This document shows, in pieces, positions 22,862 through 51,665 of a DNA stretch of 64,000 nt (position 1 is its first letter; each line of letters begins with the position of its first letter). The stretch is from an uncultured Bacilli bacterium. Its GTDB lineage: Bacteria; Bacillota_I; Bacilli_A; RF39; UBA660. The notes below the pieces were generated by a model that saw only the letters and a program-made list of their open reading frames with translations, was not told the DNA's origin and searched no databases. The position numbers were made by a program, and so were the translations under genes. Location of the stretch: positions 218,955 through 282,954 of the forward strand of contig OZ006994.1 in NCBI GenBank assembly GCA_963931305.1. The letters are read 5' to 3'.

Positions 22862-23635
22862 ATGAAAGAAATAAAAATATTAATGATTGATGACAATAAA
22901 AACTTAGTAGAAATGATTCGAGAATATTTTAAAGAACATGAGACAATTCATGTAGTAGATGTCGCCTATGATGGAAAAGAAGGATTTGATAAGATTAAAA
23001 ATAATCAAGATGCATATGATGTCATTTTACTTGATTTAATTATGCCAAATAAAGATGGTATGTATGTTTTAGAAGAGATGAAGAAACATGATATACATAA
23101 AAATGTGATTGTAGAAACTAGTTATAATGCGAGTGAAACCATTCGTCAAGTATCAGAATATGGAGTAAATTACTTTTTACTAAAACCATTTGATTTAAAA
23201 GATCTAGAAAAAAGAATTATGAATTTCTGTACTGATAAAACACTAGAAAGTAAAAACATTGATTTTTATCACAATAATTTACAAATATCTATTACTAAAA
23301 TATTACATGAATTAGGAATACCTTCTCATATTAAAGGATATCAATATATTCGTGAAGCAATTGGAATTATCTATGAACATCCAGAAGTAATCGGTGGTAT
23401 TACAAAAGAATTATATCCAGAACTAGCTAGTAAATTTGATACTACCGTATCACGTGTTGAAAGAGCGATTCGTCATGCGATAGAAGTAAGTTGGAATCGT
23501 GCTAACTGGTCACTGATGGAAGAAATATTTGGAAATAGTGTCGATATCGATAAAGCAAAACCAACCAATAGTGAATTTATTGTTACAGTTGCTGATAAAT
23601 TAAGATTAGAATCAAAAAAGATAGGGATTGCATAA
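22862..23635 (+). CDS. spo0A: stage 0 sporulation master regulator Spo0A
   Basis: Receiver domain (DDN...D-D...LDLIMP) plus the invariant Spo0A C-terminal DNA-binding domain ([14 protein letters not shown]...[31 protein letters not shown]). Confidence 0.95.
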
Positions 23636-23663: not shown

Positions 23664-23695
23664 TGTCGAAAAATGAGGTTGATGTATGGTATAAT
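23664..23695 (+). promoter_or_regulatory. predicted Spo0A-dependent promoter: 0A box plus extended -10
   Basis: Perfect TGTCGAA at 23664-23670 in the -35 region, TGgTATAAT extended -10 at 23687-23695, ~35 nt before the 23728 ORF. Confidence 0.4.
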
Positions 23696-23727: not shown

Positions 23728-25104
23728 ATGAAGAATAAAAAGGAAAATAAGAAGAAAATATTATATAATGTTGTTATTATTTTTAATATATTATTTATTG
23801 TTGGATTAATTTTTTATTATGGGTATCGCTTAGCTTATTATTATAAATTAGAACATCAACCTCCAAAAGAATTAAAATACTTATCAGAAAAAATTACATC
23901 AGGAAATCAATTAGTAAACGAAGGTGATGGTCTTTATTTAGATGAAGATACAAAAACATTCTACTTTAAAGGAGTAAATGTCAATAATTATCTTTATTAT
24001 TCTGGTAATATGTGGCGTATTATAAAAGTAAATAAAGATGGTAGTATGGTACTTATATTGAATCAACCTATTATTTCTATTACTTTTGGTACAACAAGTC
24101 AATATCAATCATCATTTGTTCATAGTTATTTAAATGAAATAGAGAATCAACCATATACAGGTTTATTTGAACAAGTATTAAATCATCCTGATTCTTATTT
24201 AAAGAAAACGACAATCTGTACAGATGTGATTTCAAATGTAGAAGATATTACTTGTAAAAAAATGATTAGTCAAGATTTAGTAGGTATTCTAAACTTAAGT
24301 GATTATGAATTATCTGGAGGAAAAAATGGTTATTTAAATAATGGAGTATCTTACTATACTGCGACAAGAGATAATTATGATCGTATATATTATGTGCATA
24401 GTAAAGGTGGTGTATCACTAGCAGATGATTATAATGAACATAATTATGCTGTTAGACCAACAATTACTTTAAAATCAAACATAAAATATCTATCAGGAGA
24501 TGGAAGTGAAAATAGTCCATATTTCATTGAAGAACAAGAACAAATCTCAACAATTCAAGTAGGTAGTTATGTGAATTATAGTGGATATACATGGAAAGTA
24601 ATCTCTAAAAATGATAATACTTATAAACTTGCTACCACTACATTATTAACAGATACGACAGGACAAATATATACTAGAAATTTCGCTACAAAAACAAATG
24701 AATATAATCCAAAAACATATGGTTCTATCGCTTATTATTTAAATCATACTTGGTATCGTACTTTAGATTCTAGTTTGATAGTTGATGGGGTATGGAATAT
24801 TGGAAATTATCAAATAAATGGAGTTACAGATTATAAAAATATTTATACAAATACAGTAACCGCCAAAGTAGGTTTATTAACACTTGGAGAAATGTATTCA
24901 TTAGAATTACCAAATACATGGTTACTAACTTCTTTAAATGAAGATGATGGAATGGTTTATACGGTTCAAGAAGGGAATAAATATTTTTCTGATGTGATAG
25001 AGAATGAACATGGAATTCGTCCAGCTATTTATATTACAAATCAAGTGAAAATTATATCTGGTTCAGGAGTACTTTCTGATCCATATGTCATAGGAGGTAT
25101 GTAG
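23728..25104 (+). CDS. membrane-anchored secreted protein carrying two copies of an uncharacterised LWRI...PY-I-G module
   Basis: N-terminal TM; domain 1 ends SGDGSENSPYFIEE, domain 2 ends GIRPAIYITNQVKIISGSGVLSDPYVIGGM; NNYLYYSGNMWRIIKV motif; paralogous to the C-terminal half of the 50241 protein. Confidence 0.5.
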   Translation: MKNKKENKKKILYNVVIIFNILFIVGLIFYYGYRLAYYYKLEHQPPKELKYLSEKITSGNQLVNEGDGLYLDEDTKTFYFKGVNVNNYLYYSGNMWRIIKVNKDGSMVLILNQPIISITFGTTSQYQSSFVHSYLNEIENQPYTGLFEQVLNHPDSYLKKTTICTDVISNVEDITCKKMISQDLVGILNLSDYELSGGKNGYLNNGVSYYTATRDNYDRIYYVHSKGGVSLADDYNEHNYAVRPTITLKSNIKYLSGDGSENSPYFIEEQEQISTIQVGSYVNYSGYTWKVISKNDNTYKLATTTLLTDTTGQIYTRNFATKTNEYNPKTYGSIAYYLNHTWYRTLDSSLIVDGVWNIGNYQINGVTDYKNIYTNTVTAKVGLLTLGEMYSLELPNTWLLTSLNEDDGMVYTVQEGNKYFSDVIENEHGIRPAIYITNQVKIISGSGVLSDPYVIGGM

Positions 25105-26118
25105 ATGAGAAAAAAGAAAAAGACAGCTATCTTTTTACTAGTCATAGATACTTGTATCATCATTTGTTTCTTTCTCGCATATGGACCATTTTCTTACTTA
25201 AGAGAACTTTATATTACAACTGCTATGACAACTATGTCTCATAAATATTTAGCTCGTACGATATATACAGAAGATATGATTAATGATGTATTAGATGGAA
25301 ACTATGTAAAAGAAACGGGAGAAAGTACAAATACAAATGATATAGTAATTGGTGATATTGATGATAGTGGTGAGTATGATTCTATTTATGATGAACAAAT
25401 TTTAACAAGAGATCCTGCTCATCCAGAATATAAATTAATTCCTTTAAAAGGAAGTGGCTATCAAGGATATATGGTTGCGATATATGATCCTAGTCGTGTA
25501 GAACTTGTTATGACAAATAAATTAGGTCGTATTGGTCAATTTTTAAGAGAATTAGTAGTAGATAATCAGGCAATATTAGGAATGAATGCCAGTGGATTTG
25601 TAGATCATAATGAAATGGGAAATGGTGGAGAACCAACTGGTATTGTAATACAAGATGGTAAAGTAATTTGGGATGCTACAAAAACTGGATACTCAGGTGG
25701 AATTGCTGGCTTTACAAAAGATAATAAATTAGTACTTACCAAAGGTACAGCAGAAGAAGCAATTAAAGCAGGAGTTGAAGATGCTGTAGAATTTGGACCA
25801 TTCCTAATTGTAAATGGAAAAGCAGCAGAAATAAAAGGAAATGGTGGCTGGGGAATTGCCCCAAGAACTGTACTTGCACAACGTAAAGATGGTATTGTAT
25901 TATTTTTAGTAATTGATGGTAGACAACCTGGATATAGTTTAGGAATTAGTATGAATGAACTTACTAAACTATTACAACGATACAAAGCACATAATGCAGT
26001 AAATTTAGATGGTGGTGCCTCTAGTAGTATTGCCATCGGTAATGAGACAATTACCAAACCATGTGGTTATAGTGCAACAGGAGAAAGAAGAATCCCTAAT
26101 GCTTGGGTATTAAAATAA
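25105..26118 (+). CDS. phosphodiester glycosidase (NAGPA/DUF2233) family protein, membrane-anchored
   Basis: N-terminal TM; GPFLIVNGK, RTVLAQRKDG, LFLVIDGRQ, NLDGGASSS motifs typical of the NAGPA family. Confidence 0.55.
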   Translation: MRKKKKTAIFLLVIDTCIIICFFLAYGPFSYLRELYITTAMTTMSHKYLARTIYTEDMINDVLDGNYVKETGESTNTNDIVIGDIDDSGEYDSIYDEQILTRDPAHPEYKLIPLKGSGYQGYMVAIYDPSRVELVMTNKLGRIGQFLRELVVDNQAILGMNASGFVDHNEMGNGGEPTGIVIQDGKVIWDATKTGYSGGIAGFTKDNKLVLTKGTAEEAIKAGVEDAVEFGPFLIVNGKAAEIKGNGGWGIAPRTVLAQRKDGIVLFLVIDGRQPGYSLGISMNELTKLLQRYKAHNAVNLDGGASSSIAIGNETITKPCGYSATGERRIPNAWVLK

Positions 26119-26362
26119 AATGTCAGGTATTCCCTGATATTTTTCTTTGCAATCAGGATAAAATATGATATATATAGGTAATAAAACTCTTTCTATTAGT
26201 AGGAAATTAAAGGATTTATGTCATTGGAACTTTGATTTAAGTTGTTTTCTTTGTGGAAACAACTTTTTTAGGTTGTATCTATTTTGGCTGAAAAAGATAG
26301 AAAAATATAAAAATATTTGGTACACTAATAATGTGCTGATAATAGATAGGAGTGTATCATTA

Positions 26363-26515
26363 TGAAAAAGAATAAGAAGCATAAAACATATTTACTCATT
26401 ACGTTAATTGTAGTATGTATTTTTCTGATGTTAGGATTCGGATATGCACTTCTATCACAAAATCTAGATATTAAAGGAACAGGAACGATGCAAGATCCGT
26501 ATGTGATTGAATAAA
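26363..26515 (+). CDS. 50-codon ORF encoding an N-terminal fragment-like member of the LWRI/PY-I-G family (possible gene remnant)
   Basis: ATGAAAAAG...TAA preceded by AGGAG RBS; encodes MKKNKKHKTYLLITLIVVCIFLMLGFGYALLSQNLDIKGTGTMQDPYVIE, matching the 50241 protein N-terminus (GYAILTQQLEINGTAQI) and the family C-terminal DPYVI motif. Confidence 0.35.
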
Positions 26516-26526
26516 AAAATAAAGGC

Positions 26527-50240: not shown

Positions 50241-51665
50241 ATGAGAAGGTATCACAAAATAAAAGTAGAAAAATTTTTAATAGGAACAATATGTGTATCT
50301 GCATTGTTAATGTTAGGTATTGGCTACGCGATATTAACACAACAATTAGAAATTAATGGAACTGCTCAAATTACATCTAATTGGAAAATACTATTTACAA
50401 GTGCGGAAGAAAAAGAAATGATGAATGCGACAACGACGAGAAAGGAAATTTCTAATCAAACAACATTGAATTTAAATGTTGTGTTACAACAACCAGGAGC
50501 TAGCGCAACGTATGATGTAGTCGTAGAAAATCAAGGAACTTTAGATGCAGTACTTTCTAATATTGAAGGAATTGAAGAGAGTAATCAGAAGGATCCTAAA
50601 TCTATTAAAGTAAGTATAGACAATATTGAAGTAGGAGATCCGTTATTAGTAAATGATAAAAAAACATTTCAAGTAAAAGTATATTGGGATGAAAATGTAG
50701 ATTTTAGTGAAACAAACATGAATAAAGAAATACAAATTACTCTGACATATGAACAAAGTGATAATGGGGTACCAGTAGGACCACTTCCAAGTGATGGAGT
50801 AGATATGGGTGGCCAAAACGTAAAATTAGTAACATCAGGAGACGGACTTTATGAAGATAGCACTAGAGTAGGAAGATATGTATATAAAGGAGCAAATCCC
50901 AATAACTATATACAGTTTAATAATGAATTGTGGAGAATTGTTGCTAAAGAAGCAGATGGAACCTATAAGATTGTAAGAAATGAGGTGCTTTCAGAAAAAA
51001 TTTCATTCGATAATAAAGGATATAGAGATGCAGATAGTAATGGAGCAGGTGGTACTTATTGTGCAAATAGTAGCTATGGATGTAATGCTTGGGCAGCCAA
51101 TTCAAATCTAGTAGGAAAGCCAGAAGAATTTACAAATACAATTCAAACAGGAACTGTGTTATTAGATTCTACTTTAAATCAATATTTGAATGGAGAATAT
51201 TTATCTAGCATTACAACAAATTCAGAATATATCGTAAAACATGATTGGGGAGTAGGTACAACATATACAGATGCAAGTAAAAGTGATGATGGTGATGTAG
51301 ATCCAAGTGAATTAGTTGCAGAAGAAAATGTATATCAATGGAATGGAAAAGTTGCACTATTATCATCAAGTGATGTTCAATTATCAGTAAGTAATGAAGA
51401 ATTGTGTGGAACATCTAATAAATATGAAAACAATTATAAGACATGTGCAGCTAATAATTATTTAGCAAATCTTGAAAAATGGTTGCTCTTGCTGTCTCCT
51501 GCTGTTGGCACTAACAATATTCGTTGGGTTCGCATAGATGGTAAAATCAATAATACTACTCTTACAAATGGTAGTACGGCCAAAATTCGACCTGCTCTCT
51601 ATCTTAGTTCTAATATTAAGTTGAGTGGAAATGGAACCCAATCAAGTCCATATATTCTCGGATAG
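50241..51665 (+). CDS. secreted protein: N-terminal TasA/camelysin-like domain fused to the C-terminal LWRI...PY-I-G module
   Basis: N-terminus LGIGYAILTQQLEINGTAQITSNWKI...ATYDVVVENQGTLDAVL (TasA-like core); C-terminus NNYIQFNNELWRIV...KIRPALYLSSNIKLSGNGTQSSPYILG shared with the 23728 protein. Confidence 0.5.
   Translation: MRRYHKIKVEKFLIGTICVSALLMLGIGYAILTQQLEINGTAQITSNWKILFTSAEEKEMMNATTTRKEISNQTTLNLNVVLQQPGASATYDVVVENQGTLDAVLSNIEGIEESNQKDPKSIKVSIDNIEVGDPLLVNDKKTFQVKVYWDENVDFSETNMNKEIQITLTYEQSDNGVPVGPLPSDGVDMGGQNVKLVTSGDGLYEDSTRVGRYVYKGANPNNYIQFNNELWRIVAKEADGTYKIVRNEVLSEKISFDNKGYRDADSNGAGGTYCANSSYGCNAWAANSNLVGKPEEFTNTIQTGTVLLDSTLNQYLNGEYLSSITTNSEYIVKHDWGVGTTYTDASKSDDGDVDPSELVAEENVYQWNGKVALLSSSDVQLSVSNEELCGTSNKYENNYKTCAANNYLANLEKWLLLLSPAVGTNNIRWVRIDGKINNTTLTNGSTAKIRPALYLSSNIKLSGNGTQSSPYILG

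What the first reader, a model, noticed from the sequence alone, without database searches (positions are those of the whole stretch)
23728..25104. Uncharacterised paralogous module (NNY-x-[FY]..LWRI[IV] ... IRPA[IL]Y[IL] ... SG[SN]G ... [SD]PY[VFI][IL]G) recurring three times in the window
The 23728 protein carries the module twice, its halves ending SGDGSENSPYFIEE and IRPAIYITNQVKIISGSGVLSDPYVIGGM. The C-terminal half of the 50241 protein carries it once (NNYIQFNNELWRIV ... KIRPALYLSSNIKLSGNGTQSSPYILG), fused there to a TasA-like N-domain. A 50-codon ORF at 26363-26515 looks like a decayed member, with a TasA-like N-terminus (GYALLSQNLDIKGTG) and the same DPYVIE ending. Dispersed copies, a fusion to a fibre domain and a decayed copy together suggest a family evolving by duplication, plausibly tip, adhesin or cap subunits of the TasA-like fibres.
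Basis: seen in the sequence. Interest (0 to 1): 0.65.

Follow-up and report, generated by a model that had tools for sequence, protein, structure and literature searches.

The report
Known lectin-like DUF6273 domain, three copies
The repeated protein module is real, but it is the already catalogued DUF6273 C-type-lectin-like binding domain, used here in a membrane protein always paired with a sugar-phosphate glycosidase and in a separate surface protein, so it is mostly ordinary with a few new details.

Summary
Three collinear copies of one module exist: two in the 23728 protein (A) and one in the 50241 protein (B), with profile-profile probabilities of 99.3-99.8%. The module is not uncharacterised as a family. 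It is Pfam DUF6273 (PF19789), a C-type-lectin-like fold with a solved relative (IgA peptidase N-terminal domain, 9QA6) and many phage receptor-binding relatives.

A is a membrane-anchored tandem DUF6273 protein. Its gene is immediately followed by a membrane-anchored NAGPA-type phosphodiester glycosidase gene in all 8 distinct contexts examined, down to 29% identity. This argues against a fibre role for A and suggests a lectin-plus-enzyme pair acting on a surface glycopolymer (inferred).

B joins a leader and Ig-like N-module to one DUF6273 head. The N-module belongs to a large family with no Pfam model and carries many different C-terminal domains. No test showed TasA homology, and linkage to SipW is not conserved.

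The 50-codon ORF does derive from the B-type leader plus the module's C-terminal cap. It is a conserved small gene (76% identical homologue in another context, pN/pS about 0.34), not a dead remnant.

No diversity-generating retroelement (DGR) is present. Verdict: new members of a known kind, of modest interest.

The parts
23666..23695 (+). Promoter-like site upstream of gene A (TCGAAA-18-TATAAT with TG)
   Evidence: Consensus scan. This is a pattern match only.
23728..25104 (+). Gene A, 458 aa: N-terminal transmembrane anchor (residues about 12-40) followed by two tandem DUF6273 / C-type-lectin-like modules
   Evidence: AF2 model has pLDDT 92.2 and pTM 0.85, with a helix at residues 2-42 and two alpha/beta domains. 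Top Foldseek PDB hit is 9qa6, E 2.7e-6. Phage DUF6273 proteins match at E 1.7e-10.
23905..24531 (+). Module copy 1 of A (residues about 60-268), ending VRPTITL...SGDGSENSPYFIE
   Evidence: hhalign vs copy 2: 99.8%. hhalign vs the B module: 99.7%.
24532..25101 (+). Module copy 2 of A (residues 269-458), ending IRPAIYI...SGSGVLSDPYVIGGM
   Evidence: Pfam PF19789 sub-threshold at 20.6 bits, residues 397-436. PHROG 9958 at E 9.4e-8 over residues 269-440. hhalign results.
25105..26118 (+). Partner gene: membrane-anchored NAGPA-type phosphodiester glycosidase. Its start codon abuts the stop codon of A
   Evidence: PF09992 at 140.6 bits. It lies directly downstream of every A-family gene examined. 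The DGG[AG]SS motif is kept.
26147..26174 (+). Promoter-like TTGCAA-16-TATATA at the start of the conserved mini-ORF cassette
   Evidence: Read from the sequence. Conserved in L010 and L089. It falls below the scan tool's threshold.
26239..26265 (+). Hairpin with T-run. It may be the terminator of the A-NAGPA operon, part of the leader of the mini-ORF, or both
   Evidence: Terminator scan. Nearly invariant in the window, L010, L011 and L089. No Rfam match.
26348..26352 (+). AGGAG ribosome-binding site 9 nt upstream of the mini-ORF start
   Evidence: Read from the sequence.
26362..26514 (+). Mini-ORF C, 50 aa: B-type leader (…LGFGYA) + LLSQNLDIKGTG + module C-terminal cap GTGTMQDPYVIE
   Evidence: hhalign vs the B-family N-terminal profile: 97.9%, E 4.9e-13. 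Exact sequence found on 26 contigs. A 76%-identical 50-aa homologue lies in another context, with pN/pS about 0.34.
50241..50792 (+). B N-terminal part: leader with near-invariant GYA, a conserved segment (residues 28-48), then an Ig-like beta-sandwich (residues about 50-175)
   Evidence: AF2 pLDDT is about 80-88 for residues 50-175 and below 50 for residues 28-47. phmmer finds 2567 representative hits, always N-terminal. Weak choice-of-anchor-D / DUF11 hits.
50793..51662 (+). B C-terminal DUF6273 module (residues 185-474)
   Evidence: PF19789 at 33.4 bits, above the 23.5 gathering score, residues 309-456. hhalign vs both A modules.

Best explanation
The recurring module is the Pfam domain DUF6273, a C-type-lectin-like (CTLD) ligand-binding fold. 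It is used in this genome by two unrelated gene families.

(1) A is a single-pass membrane protein, N-terminus inside, that displays two tandem DUF6273 modules outside the cell. It is co-transcribed and probably translationally coupled with a membrane-anchored NAGPA-type phosphodiester glycosidase. I infer that A is the glycan-recognition partner that holds or positions a sugar-1-phosphate-containing surface glycopolymer for that enzyme.

(2) B is a surface protein with three parts: a leader bearing a conserved GYA motif, an Ig-like stalk domain, and one DUF6273 head. I infer that it is a binding or adhesin-type protein. The same N-terminal leader-plus-stalk occurs alone or joined to many other binding domains.

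(3) The 50-codon ORF is a conserved small gene derived from a B-type gene by loss of everything between the leader and the C-terminal cap.

Shown: domain identity, fold, tandem duplication, topology signals, operon conservation, modularity of the N-domain, and conservation of the mini-ORF.

Inferred: glycan binding, cooperation of A with NAGPA, and the adhesin role of B.
For: Domain identity:
- Pfam PF19789 hits B above threshold and 31 of 54 A-family members.
- hhalign probabilities are 99.3-99.8%.

Fold:
- The A model has pLDDT 92.
- Its top PDB match is the IgAse N-terminal domain, 9qa6, at E 2.7e-6. That domain is described as a CTLD core in PMC12237041.
- Phage DUF6273 proteins match at E 1.7e-10 and weaker.
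- DUF6273 is reported as C-lectin-like and as a DGR-targeted receptor-binding domain in PMC10743442 and PMC11792537.

A with NAGPA:
- The NAGPA gene abuts, overlaps or lies within 4 nt of the end of the A-family gene in the window and in L001 (70% identity), L008 (58%), L003 (42%), L018 (35%), L004 (34%) and L017 (29%). The other flanking genes differ.
- Both proteins have lysine-rich N-termini followed by a hydrophobic helix.
- The NAGPA partners keep the DGG[AG]S sugar-phosphate motif (PMC13474241).
- No B-type locus has NAGPA next to it.

B modularity:
- 2567 representative proteins carry the N-module, always at the N-terminus.
- Of the best 150, 32 are stand-alone (160-185 aa) and about 35 carry the DUF6273-like module. 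Others carry DUF285, fn3, PKD or Big_13.

Mini-ORF.
Against: - No ligand or activity was tested.
- The IgAse DUF6273 domain is dispensable for that enzyme's activity and has no assigned function, so 'lectin' is a fold-based inference.
- Canonical CTLDs match the A model only at weak E-values of 0.4-2.
- A itself scores below the Pfam gathering threshold (20.6 vs 23.5 bits).
- The B model is poor in its DUF6273 part (pLDDT below 50).
- Whether the B leader is cleaved or acts as an anchor is unknown.
- Operon conservation shows linkage, not physical or functional interaction.
Confidence: 0.72

Rival explanations
1. One reading: the module-bearing proteins are tip, adhesin or cap subunits of TasA-like, SipW-processed fibres. 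In this view the B N-domain is a TasA-like fibre domain.
For: - Two SipW-like peptidase genes lie in the window, at 52779 (TIGR02228 weak) and 57846. The first is about 1.1 kb downstream of B.
- The B-type N-module exists in stand-alone forms of about 170 aa and in forms with varied C-terminal binding domains. This pattern resembles major and tip subunits.
- The most conserved N-module segment (GYA + LSQxLxINGTA, residues 28-48) is predicted with pLDDT below 50 in the monomer. A donor strand like that of TasA would behave this way (PMC9674648).
- A few family members give sporadic sub-threshold hits to TasA (E 0.008), BsaA (E 0.044) and AbpX (E 0.9).
Against: - A is a TM-anchored tandem-module protein tied to NAGPA, not to any fibre gene.
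- The B N-module has no significant Pfam or NCBIfam TasA/camelysin/SipW-signal hit.
- No TasA appears among the top 50 Foldseek PDB matches.
- hhalign vs the window proteins 53269, 58396 and 59007(-) gives about 2% probability. Those proteins themselves hit no TasA family.
- B-family loci L014-L016 have no Peptidase_S26 gene within 8 kb.
- No homologue of either window SipW-like gene was found in 36 loci totalling 473 kb. This was a low-sensitivity search.
Confidence: 0.15
2. The module-bearing genes are targets of a diversity-generating retroelement or are prophage-derived receptor-binding proteins, as DUF6273 proteins are in gut phages.
For: - DUF6273 is a common DGR target domain in Faecalibacterium phages (PMC10743442, PMC11792537).
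- The best structural neighbours in BFVD are phage DUF6273 proteins.
- PHROG 9958 hits A.
Against: - The window holds no reverse-transcriptase-like ORF and no template-repeat-like DNA copy of any part of A or B.
- The 91 variable positions among 15 near-identical A sequences are spread along the protein rather than clustered in a C-terminal variable region.
- The flanking genes are housekeeping genes (tpiA, pgk, spo0A, der), not phage genes.
Confidence: 0.03
3. A is a regulatory or structural anchor for the glycosidase, or an inhibitor or chaperone of it, and does not bind the substrate. The lectin-like fold then serves protein-protein contact, as C-type-lectin-like domains often do.
For: - The strict A-NAGPA pairing and start/stop coupling fit a stoichiometric complex.
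- Juxtamembrane motifs are conserved in both proteins: FYGYRLxYYY in A and YGPxSYxRxL in NAGPA.
- The IgAse DUF6273 domain contacts a neighbouring protein domain and has no known glycan ligand.
Against: There is no direct evidence either way. Two tandem, well-conserved globular modules are more than a simple anchor needs. Phage DUF6273 domains act in receptor recognition.
Confidence: 0.1

Closest known systems
Pfam DUF6273 (PF19789), as solved in the N-terminal domain of Thomasclavelia ramosa IgA peptidase (PDB 9QA6; PMC12237041, PMC12402451)
   Same: - HMM match (B above threshold; 31 of 54 A-family members).
- Same order of sequence landmarks: hydrophobic-W-R/K-[IV], x-YLN, LLS, RPA-hydrophobic.
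- Top Foldseek PDB hit for the A model (E 2.7e-6, probability 1.0).
- Extracellular location in a gut Firmicute.
   Different: - Here the domain is not attached to a peptidase.
- A carries it in tandem behind a TM anchor. B carries it behind an Ig-like domain.
- The modules end in a conserved C-terminal cap, G.G[ST]..PY.[IVL], that lies outside the Pfam model.
- The IgAse zinc site was not examined.
Phage DUF6273 receptor-binding / DGR target proteins (tentaclins and Faecalibacterium prophage targets; PMC10743442, PMC11792537)
   Same: Same domain family and C-type-lectin-like fold. Best matches in the viral structure library (E 1.7e-10 to 1e-3).
   Different: The genes here are chromosomal in housekeeping contexts. 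There is no reverse transcriptase, no template repeat and no hypervariable region.
NAGPA 'uncovering enzyme' / bacterial phosphodiester glycosidase family (PF09992, DUF2233; PMC13474241)
   Same: The partner gene of A matches PF09992 at 140.6 bits and keeps the sugar-phosphate loop (DGGAS here; DGGGS in more distant partners).
   Different: The bacterial substrate is unknown. The obligatory pairing with a tandem-DUF6273 membrane protein came up in none of the few papers I searched or read. The fourth motif residue is Ala in this lineage.
TasA/TapA-SipW donor-strand fibres of Bacillus subtilis and archaeal bundling pili (PMC9674648, PMC9245690)
   Same: - SipW-like peptidase genes lie nearby in the window.
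- The N-module family has stand-alone and extended forms.
- A conserved segment directly after the leader is not placed in the monomer model.
   Different: There is no detectable sequence or fold match to TasA. SipW linkage is not conserved. Fibre formation is untested.

Membership tests
Pfam DUF6273 (PF19789) | Match to the family HMM at or above the gathering score (23.5 bits) | tested here: met
   B scores 33.4 bits over residues 309-456. A alone scores 20.6 bits, below threshold. However, 31 of 54 diverse A-family members hit at E<=0.01, best 6.5e-10, and both A modules align to the B module at 99.3-99.7% hhalign probability.
Pfam DUF6273 (PF19789) | Fold shared with solved or predicted DUF6273 domains | tested here: met
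   The A model (pLDDT 92.2) matches 9qa6, whose IgAse N-terminal domain is annotated DUF6273, at E 2.7e-6. It matches phage 'DUF6273 domain-containing' proteins at E 1.7e-10 to 1e-3. The B module could not be checked because its model has pLDDT below 50.
[quoted passage not shown] | Canonical CTLD core superposing on classical CTLDs | tested here: inconclusive
[quoted passage not shown] | Ca2+/carbohydrate-binding long loop (EPN/QPD-type) and the conserved disulfides | not tested
   Only one nearly invariant Cys pair was noted (C164/C176 in A module 1). No motif or site analysis was done. The IgAse DUF6273 domain lacks the long loop and the disulfides.
TasA / camelysin-type SipW-dependent fibre proteins | Sequence match to TasA-family models (PF12389, NF046066, TIGR04087-90) or to the SipW-cognate signal (TIGR04088) | tested here: not met
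   B and its N-domain give no such hit. Among 32 N-module proteins there were only sporadic sub-threshold hits: TasA in 1 member at E 0.008 and BsaA in 2 members at E 0.044. Profile searches of PDB sequences found no TasA; AbpX scored E 0.9.
TasA / camelysin-type SipW-dependent fibre proteins | TasA-like jellyroll fold | tested here: not met
   Foldseek of the B model against the PDB gave no hit at E<=0.001 and no TasA in the top 50, only generic Ig-like sandwiches. Caveat: only residues 50-175 of the model are confident.
TasA / camelysin-type SipW-dependent fibre proteins | Conserved operon with a SipW-type signal peptidase | tested here: not met
   In the window a SipW-like gene lies 1.1 kb downstream, separated from B by two unrelated genes. 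B-family loci L014-L016 have no S26 peptidase within 8 kb. No homologue of the window SipW-like genes was found in 36 loci totalling 473 kb, in a low-sensitivity search.
TasA / camelysin-type SipW-dependent fibre proteins | Polymerisation by an N-terminal donor strand | not testable with these tools
   This needs multimer prediction or an experiment. The only indirect hint is that the conserved segment at residues 28-47 has low pLDDT.
DGR (diversity-generating retroelement) target protein | Nearby reverse transcriptase and a template repeat matching a variable region, with adenine-directed hypervariation | tested here: not met
   The window has no RT-like ORF and no TR-like repeat. Variation among 15 close A sequences is evenly spread. 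The rest of the genome was not searched.
NAGPA / phosphodiester glycosidase (PF09992), for the partner gene at 25105-26118 | HMM match and the DGGGS sugar-phosphate loop | tested here: met
   PF09992 at 140.6 bits against a cutoff of 25. The loop is DGGAS in this lineage and DGGGS in the partners of more distant A homologues. The motif is described in PMC13474241.

The most novel reading that the evidence does not exclude
The leader-plus-Ig-like N-module family (2567 representative clusters, no Pfam model) may form an undescribed donor-strand-type surface filament in small-genome gut Bacilli.

In this reading:
- Stand-alone proteins of about 170 aa are the shaft.
- B-type proteins are lectin-tipped adhesin subunits.
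- The conserved 50-aa mini-protein is a strand-only primer or terminator, analogous to the N-terminal fragment of TapA. After cleavage at GYA it would be a 21-residue peptide made of just the conserved post-leader strand and the C-terminal cap.

Separately, the invariant A-NAGPA operon would define a new lectin-guided system for trimming a sugar-phosphate surface polymer.
Probability: 0.15. Interest if true: 0.75.

Novelty: new member of a known kind. Interest (0 to 1): 0.36.

Why it matters
- The work assigns two hypothetical-protein families of uncultured gut Bacilli to the DUF6273 C-type-lectin-like family. That family has little functional annotation outside phage receptor binding.
- The strict pairing of a tandem DUF6273 membrane protein with a NAGPA-type phosphodiester glycosidase gives a concrete, testable hypothesis for two families whose bacterial roles are both unknown: recognition and trimming of a sugar-1-phosphate surface polymer.
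- The large, unannotated N-terminal display module and the conserved 50-aa mini-gene are leads for cell-surface biology in organisms that cannot yet be grown.
- The core finding, a repeated domain, is ordinary.

Tried and rejected
- The structure prediction of B failed for its DUF6273 part (pLDDT 47). All fold evidence for the module therefore comes from A.
- The genome-contig scan with A found only two close MAGs.
- Profile searches of PDB sequences with A1, A2 and A3 gave nothing significant.
- TasA-likeness of the B N-domain was tested five ways and not supported.
- The DGR hypothesis was rejected.
- I checked whether the 319-aa gene downstream of NAGPA in L001 is a full-length version of the mini-ORF. 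It is not. It is a pilin-like leader frame-shifted onto a different DUF6273-like body.
- I tested whether the conserved leader of the mini-ORF is a known riboswitch. There is no Rfam match.
- The SipW search in flanking DNA used single-sequence phmmer. It barely detects the two window paralogues in each other (E 0.07-0.12), so its negative result is weak.

Full report
**Observation**

The three ORFs exist as described: A at 23728-25104 (458 aa), B at 50241-51665 (474 aa), and a 50-codon ORF C at 26362-26514.

- A regex scan of all six frames finds the quoted motifs only in these ORFs.
- Within the window, tblastn detects the module only in A (twice) and B (once). The first half of A against B gives E 2.7e-11 over 283 columns.
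- I built family alignments from database homologues: 54 diverse A-family sequences (A1) and 28 B-family sequences (A2).
- Profile-profile comparison gives end-to-end collinear alignments:
  - A N-half vs A C-half: 99.8%, E 4.7e-28
  - A N-half vs B C-half: 99.7%, E 3.2e-26
  - A C-half vs B C-half: 99.3%, E 7.7e-21

The paralogy is real and far beyond chance.

**What the module is**

It is not an unrecognised family.

- B passes the gathering threshold of Pfam DUF6273 (PF19789): 33.4 vs 23.5 bits.
- A is just below threshold at 20.6 bits. However, 31 of 54 A-family members hit the model, best E 6.5e-10.
- AlphaFold2 on A1 gave a confident model (pLDDT 92.2, pTM 0.85). It has a long N-terminal helix (residues 2-42) and two alpha/beta domains.
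- Its only significant PDB neighbour is 9QA6, the Thomasclavelia ramosa IgA peptidase (E 2.7e-6, probability 1.0). The N-terminal domain of that enzyme is annotated DUF6273 and described as a C-type-lectin-like core (PMC12402451, PMC12237041).
- In the viral structure library the best hits are phage DUF6273 proteins, E 1.7e-10 and weaker.
- The literature describes DUF6273 as a C-lectin-like receptor-binding domain and a frequent DGR target in gut phages (PMC10743442, PMC11792537).
- Classical CTLDs appear among the hits only weakly, at E 0.4-2.
- The tail motif G.G[ST]..PY.[IVL] lies outside the Pfam model. In every module-bearing protein examined it sits 1-6 residues from the C-terminus, so it is a C-terminal cap of this subtype.

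**Gene A**

A has a lysine-rich N-terminus followed by a hydrophobic helix. This fits a single-pass anchor with the two modules outside the cell. A nearly invariant Cys pair in module 1 fits that location.

The decisive result is its genomic context.

- An A-family gene is directly followed by a PF09992 (NAGPA, phosphodiester glycosidase) gene in the window and in relatives at 70, 58, 42, 35, 34 and 29% identity.
- The two genes abut, overlap by 1-11 nt, or are separated by 4 nt. The other neighbours differ between contexts.
- The partners also carry an N-terminal anchor and keep the sugar-phosphate loop. It is DGGAS in this lineage and DGGGS in distant ones (PMC13474241).
- None of about 60 B-type or other module loci has NAGPA next to it.

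I therefore read A and NAGPA as a conserved two-gene unit: a membrane-anchored tandem lectin-like protein and a membrane-anchored glycosidase. They most likely act together on a sugar-1-phosphate-containing surface polymer. The linkage is shown. The mechanism is inferred.

**Gene B**

B consists of three parts:
- a leader ending in a near-invariant GYA;
- a strongly conserved segment, residues 28-48, that the monomer model does not place (pLDDT below 50);
- an Ig-like beta-sandwich at residues 50-175 (pLDDT about 80-88), followed by the DUF6273 module.

A full HMMER scan with residues 1-190 found 2567 representative clusters, and the match is always at the N-terminus. Of the best 150:
- 32 are stand-alone proteins of 160-185 aa;
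- about 35 carry the DUF6273-like module;
- others carry DUF285/LRR, fn3, PKD or Big_13 domains.

No Pfam family covers this N-module. NCBIfam gives only weak choice-of-anchor-D and DUF11-repeat hits.

I tested the 'TasA-like' label five ways and could not confirm it:
- no Pfam or NCBIfam TasA, camelysin or SipW-signal match;
- no TasA among the Foldseek PDB hits;
- nothing significant in profile searches of PDB sequences;
- about 2% hhalign probability against the window's three candidate fibre proteins;
- only sporadic sub-threshold TasA/BsaA hits in a few family members.

B-family genes sit in varied contexts with no S26 peptidase nearby. The fibre-tip idea is therefore unsupported for B and contradicted for A. 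The modular architecture still fits a surface display or adhesin role.

**The 50-codon ORF**

Its first 40 residues match the B-family leader profile at 97.9%, E 4.9e-13. Its last 11 residues are the module's C-terminal cap, a motif never seen in 200 shuffled windows. It is not simply decayed, however.

- The exact sequence is on 26 contigs.
- A strain variant keeps the frame across an in-frame indel and a replaced upstream region.
- A 76%-identical homologue of exactly 50 aa occurs on 15 or more contigs in a different context: after M16 peptidase genes and before a pilin-like gene. Nucleotide identity is 82% and a crude pN/pS is about 0.34.
- The ORF is absent from the same position in the 58%-identity relative L008.
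- A cassette of about 450 nt is conserved around it: a promoter-like site at 26147-26174, a near-invariant hairpin at 26239-26265, and an AGGAG site 9 nt before the ATG. It has no Rfam match.

**Other checks**

- No DGR. The window has no RT-like ORF and no template-like repeat, and variation among close A sequences is not clustered.
- The nearest genome records are labelled uncultured Mycoplasmatota or Acholeplasmataceae MAGs, yet spo0A lies next to A.

**Verdict**

It is wrong on 'uncharacterised', 'TasA-like' and fibre tips or caps. The module is a known domain family, so novelty is low. The conserved A-NAGPA operon, the unannotated N-terminal display module and the conserved mini-gene are modest new leads.

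Noticed in passing
window 26119-26526; L010 4724-5177; L089 4676-5153: The mini-ORF travels with a conserved upstream cassette of about 250-320 nt: a promoter-like site, a variable G-rich hairpin segment that is missing in the window copy, and a near-invariant hairpin with a T-run. The cassette is found behind NAGPA in the window and behind M16 peptidase genes in L089. No Rfam family matches. It could be a cis-regulatory leader or a relocatable unit.
   Followed up: partly
L001 8515-9635; L089 5227-5604 and 8330-9217: Type IV pilin-like genes (GFTLIE/GFTMVE leaders, PF07963) turn up next to these loci. In L001 a pilin-like leader is frame-shifted onto a 319-aa DUF6273-like body (ending GVRPVITV) directly downstream of NAGPA. 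In L089 the mini-ORF homologue is followed 74 nt later by a 125-aa pilin-like gene.
   Followed up: partly
L018 1484-2920: In a 35%-identity relative, a 474-aa protein sits between spo0A and the A-NAGPA pair. It has the B-type N-module (28% identity over 182 aa, E 6e-14) but an unrelated C-terminal part. N-module genes or remnants thus lie near A-NAGPA in two lineages.
   Followed up: partly
window 55199-57874: An AAA/P-loop protein (507 aa) and a DUF2357 protein (PF09823, 47 bits) form a McrBC-like restriction pair (my reading of the domain pair, from memory, not tested). They sit between the two SipW-like/candidate-fibre gene clusters.
   Followed up: no
window 52779-53288 and 57846-58445, with 53269-54195, 58396-58998 and 59007-59597(-): Two divergent SipW/archaeal-type signal peptidase I-like genes detect each other only at E about 0.1. 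Each lies next to small secreted-looking proteins. Those proteins hit no TasA, camelysin or any other Pfam or NCBIfam family.
   Followed up: partly
window 22862-23635: A full-length Spo0A gene (Response_reg + Spo0A_C, 135 bits) lies directly upstream of A. The closest public records for this genome are labelled Mycoplasmatota/Acholeplasmataceae. Related contigs also carry SspI, SpoVIF and YqfQ-like genes (L014, L018, L004).
   Followed up: no
window 25105-26118 (residues 302-306): The NAGPA sugar-phosphate loop, reported as strictly invariant DGGGS, reads DGGAS in this lineage and its relatives down to 35% identity. It reads DGGGS in partners of more distant A homologues.
   Followed up: partly
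outside the window (proteins P0171 and P0214): Two further B-family paralogues (486 and 489 aa, about 51-52% identical to B) list the same longest contig length (1,256,474 bp) as the window's own proteins. The genome therefore probably holds at least three B-type genes.
   Followed up: partly
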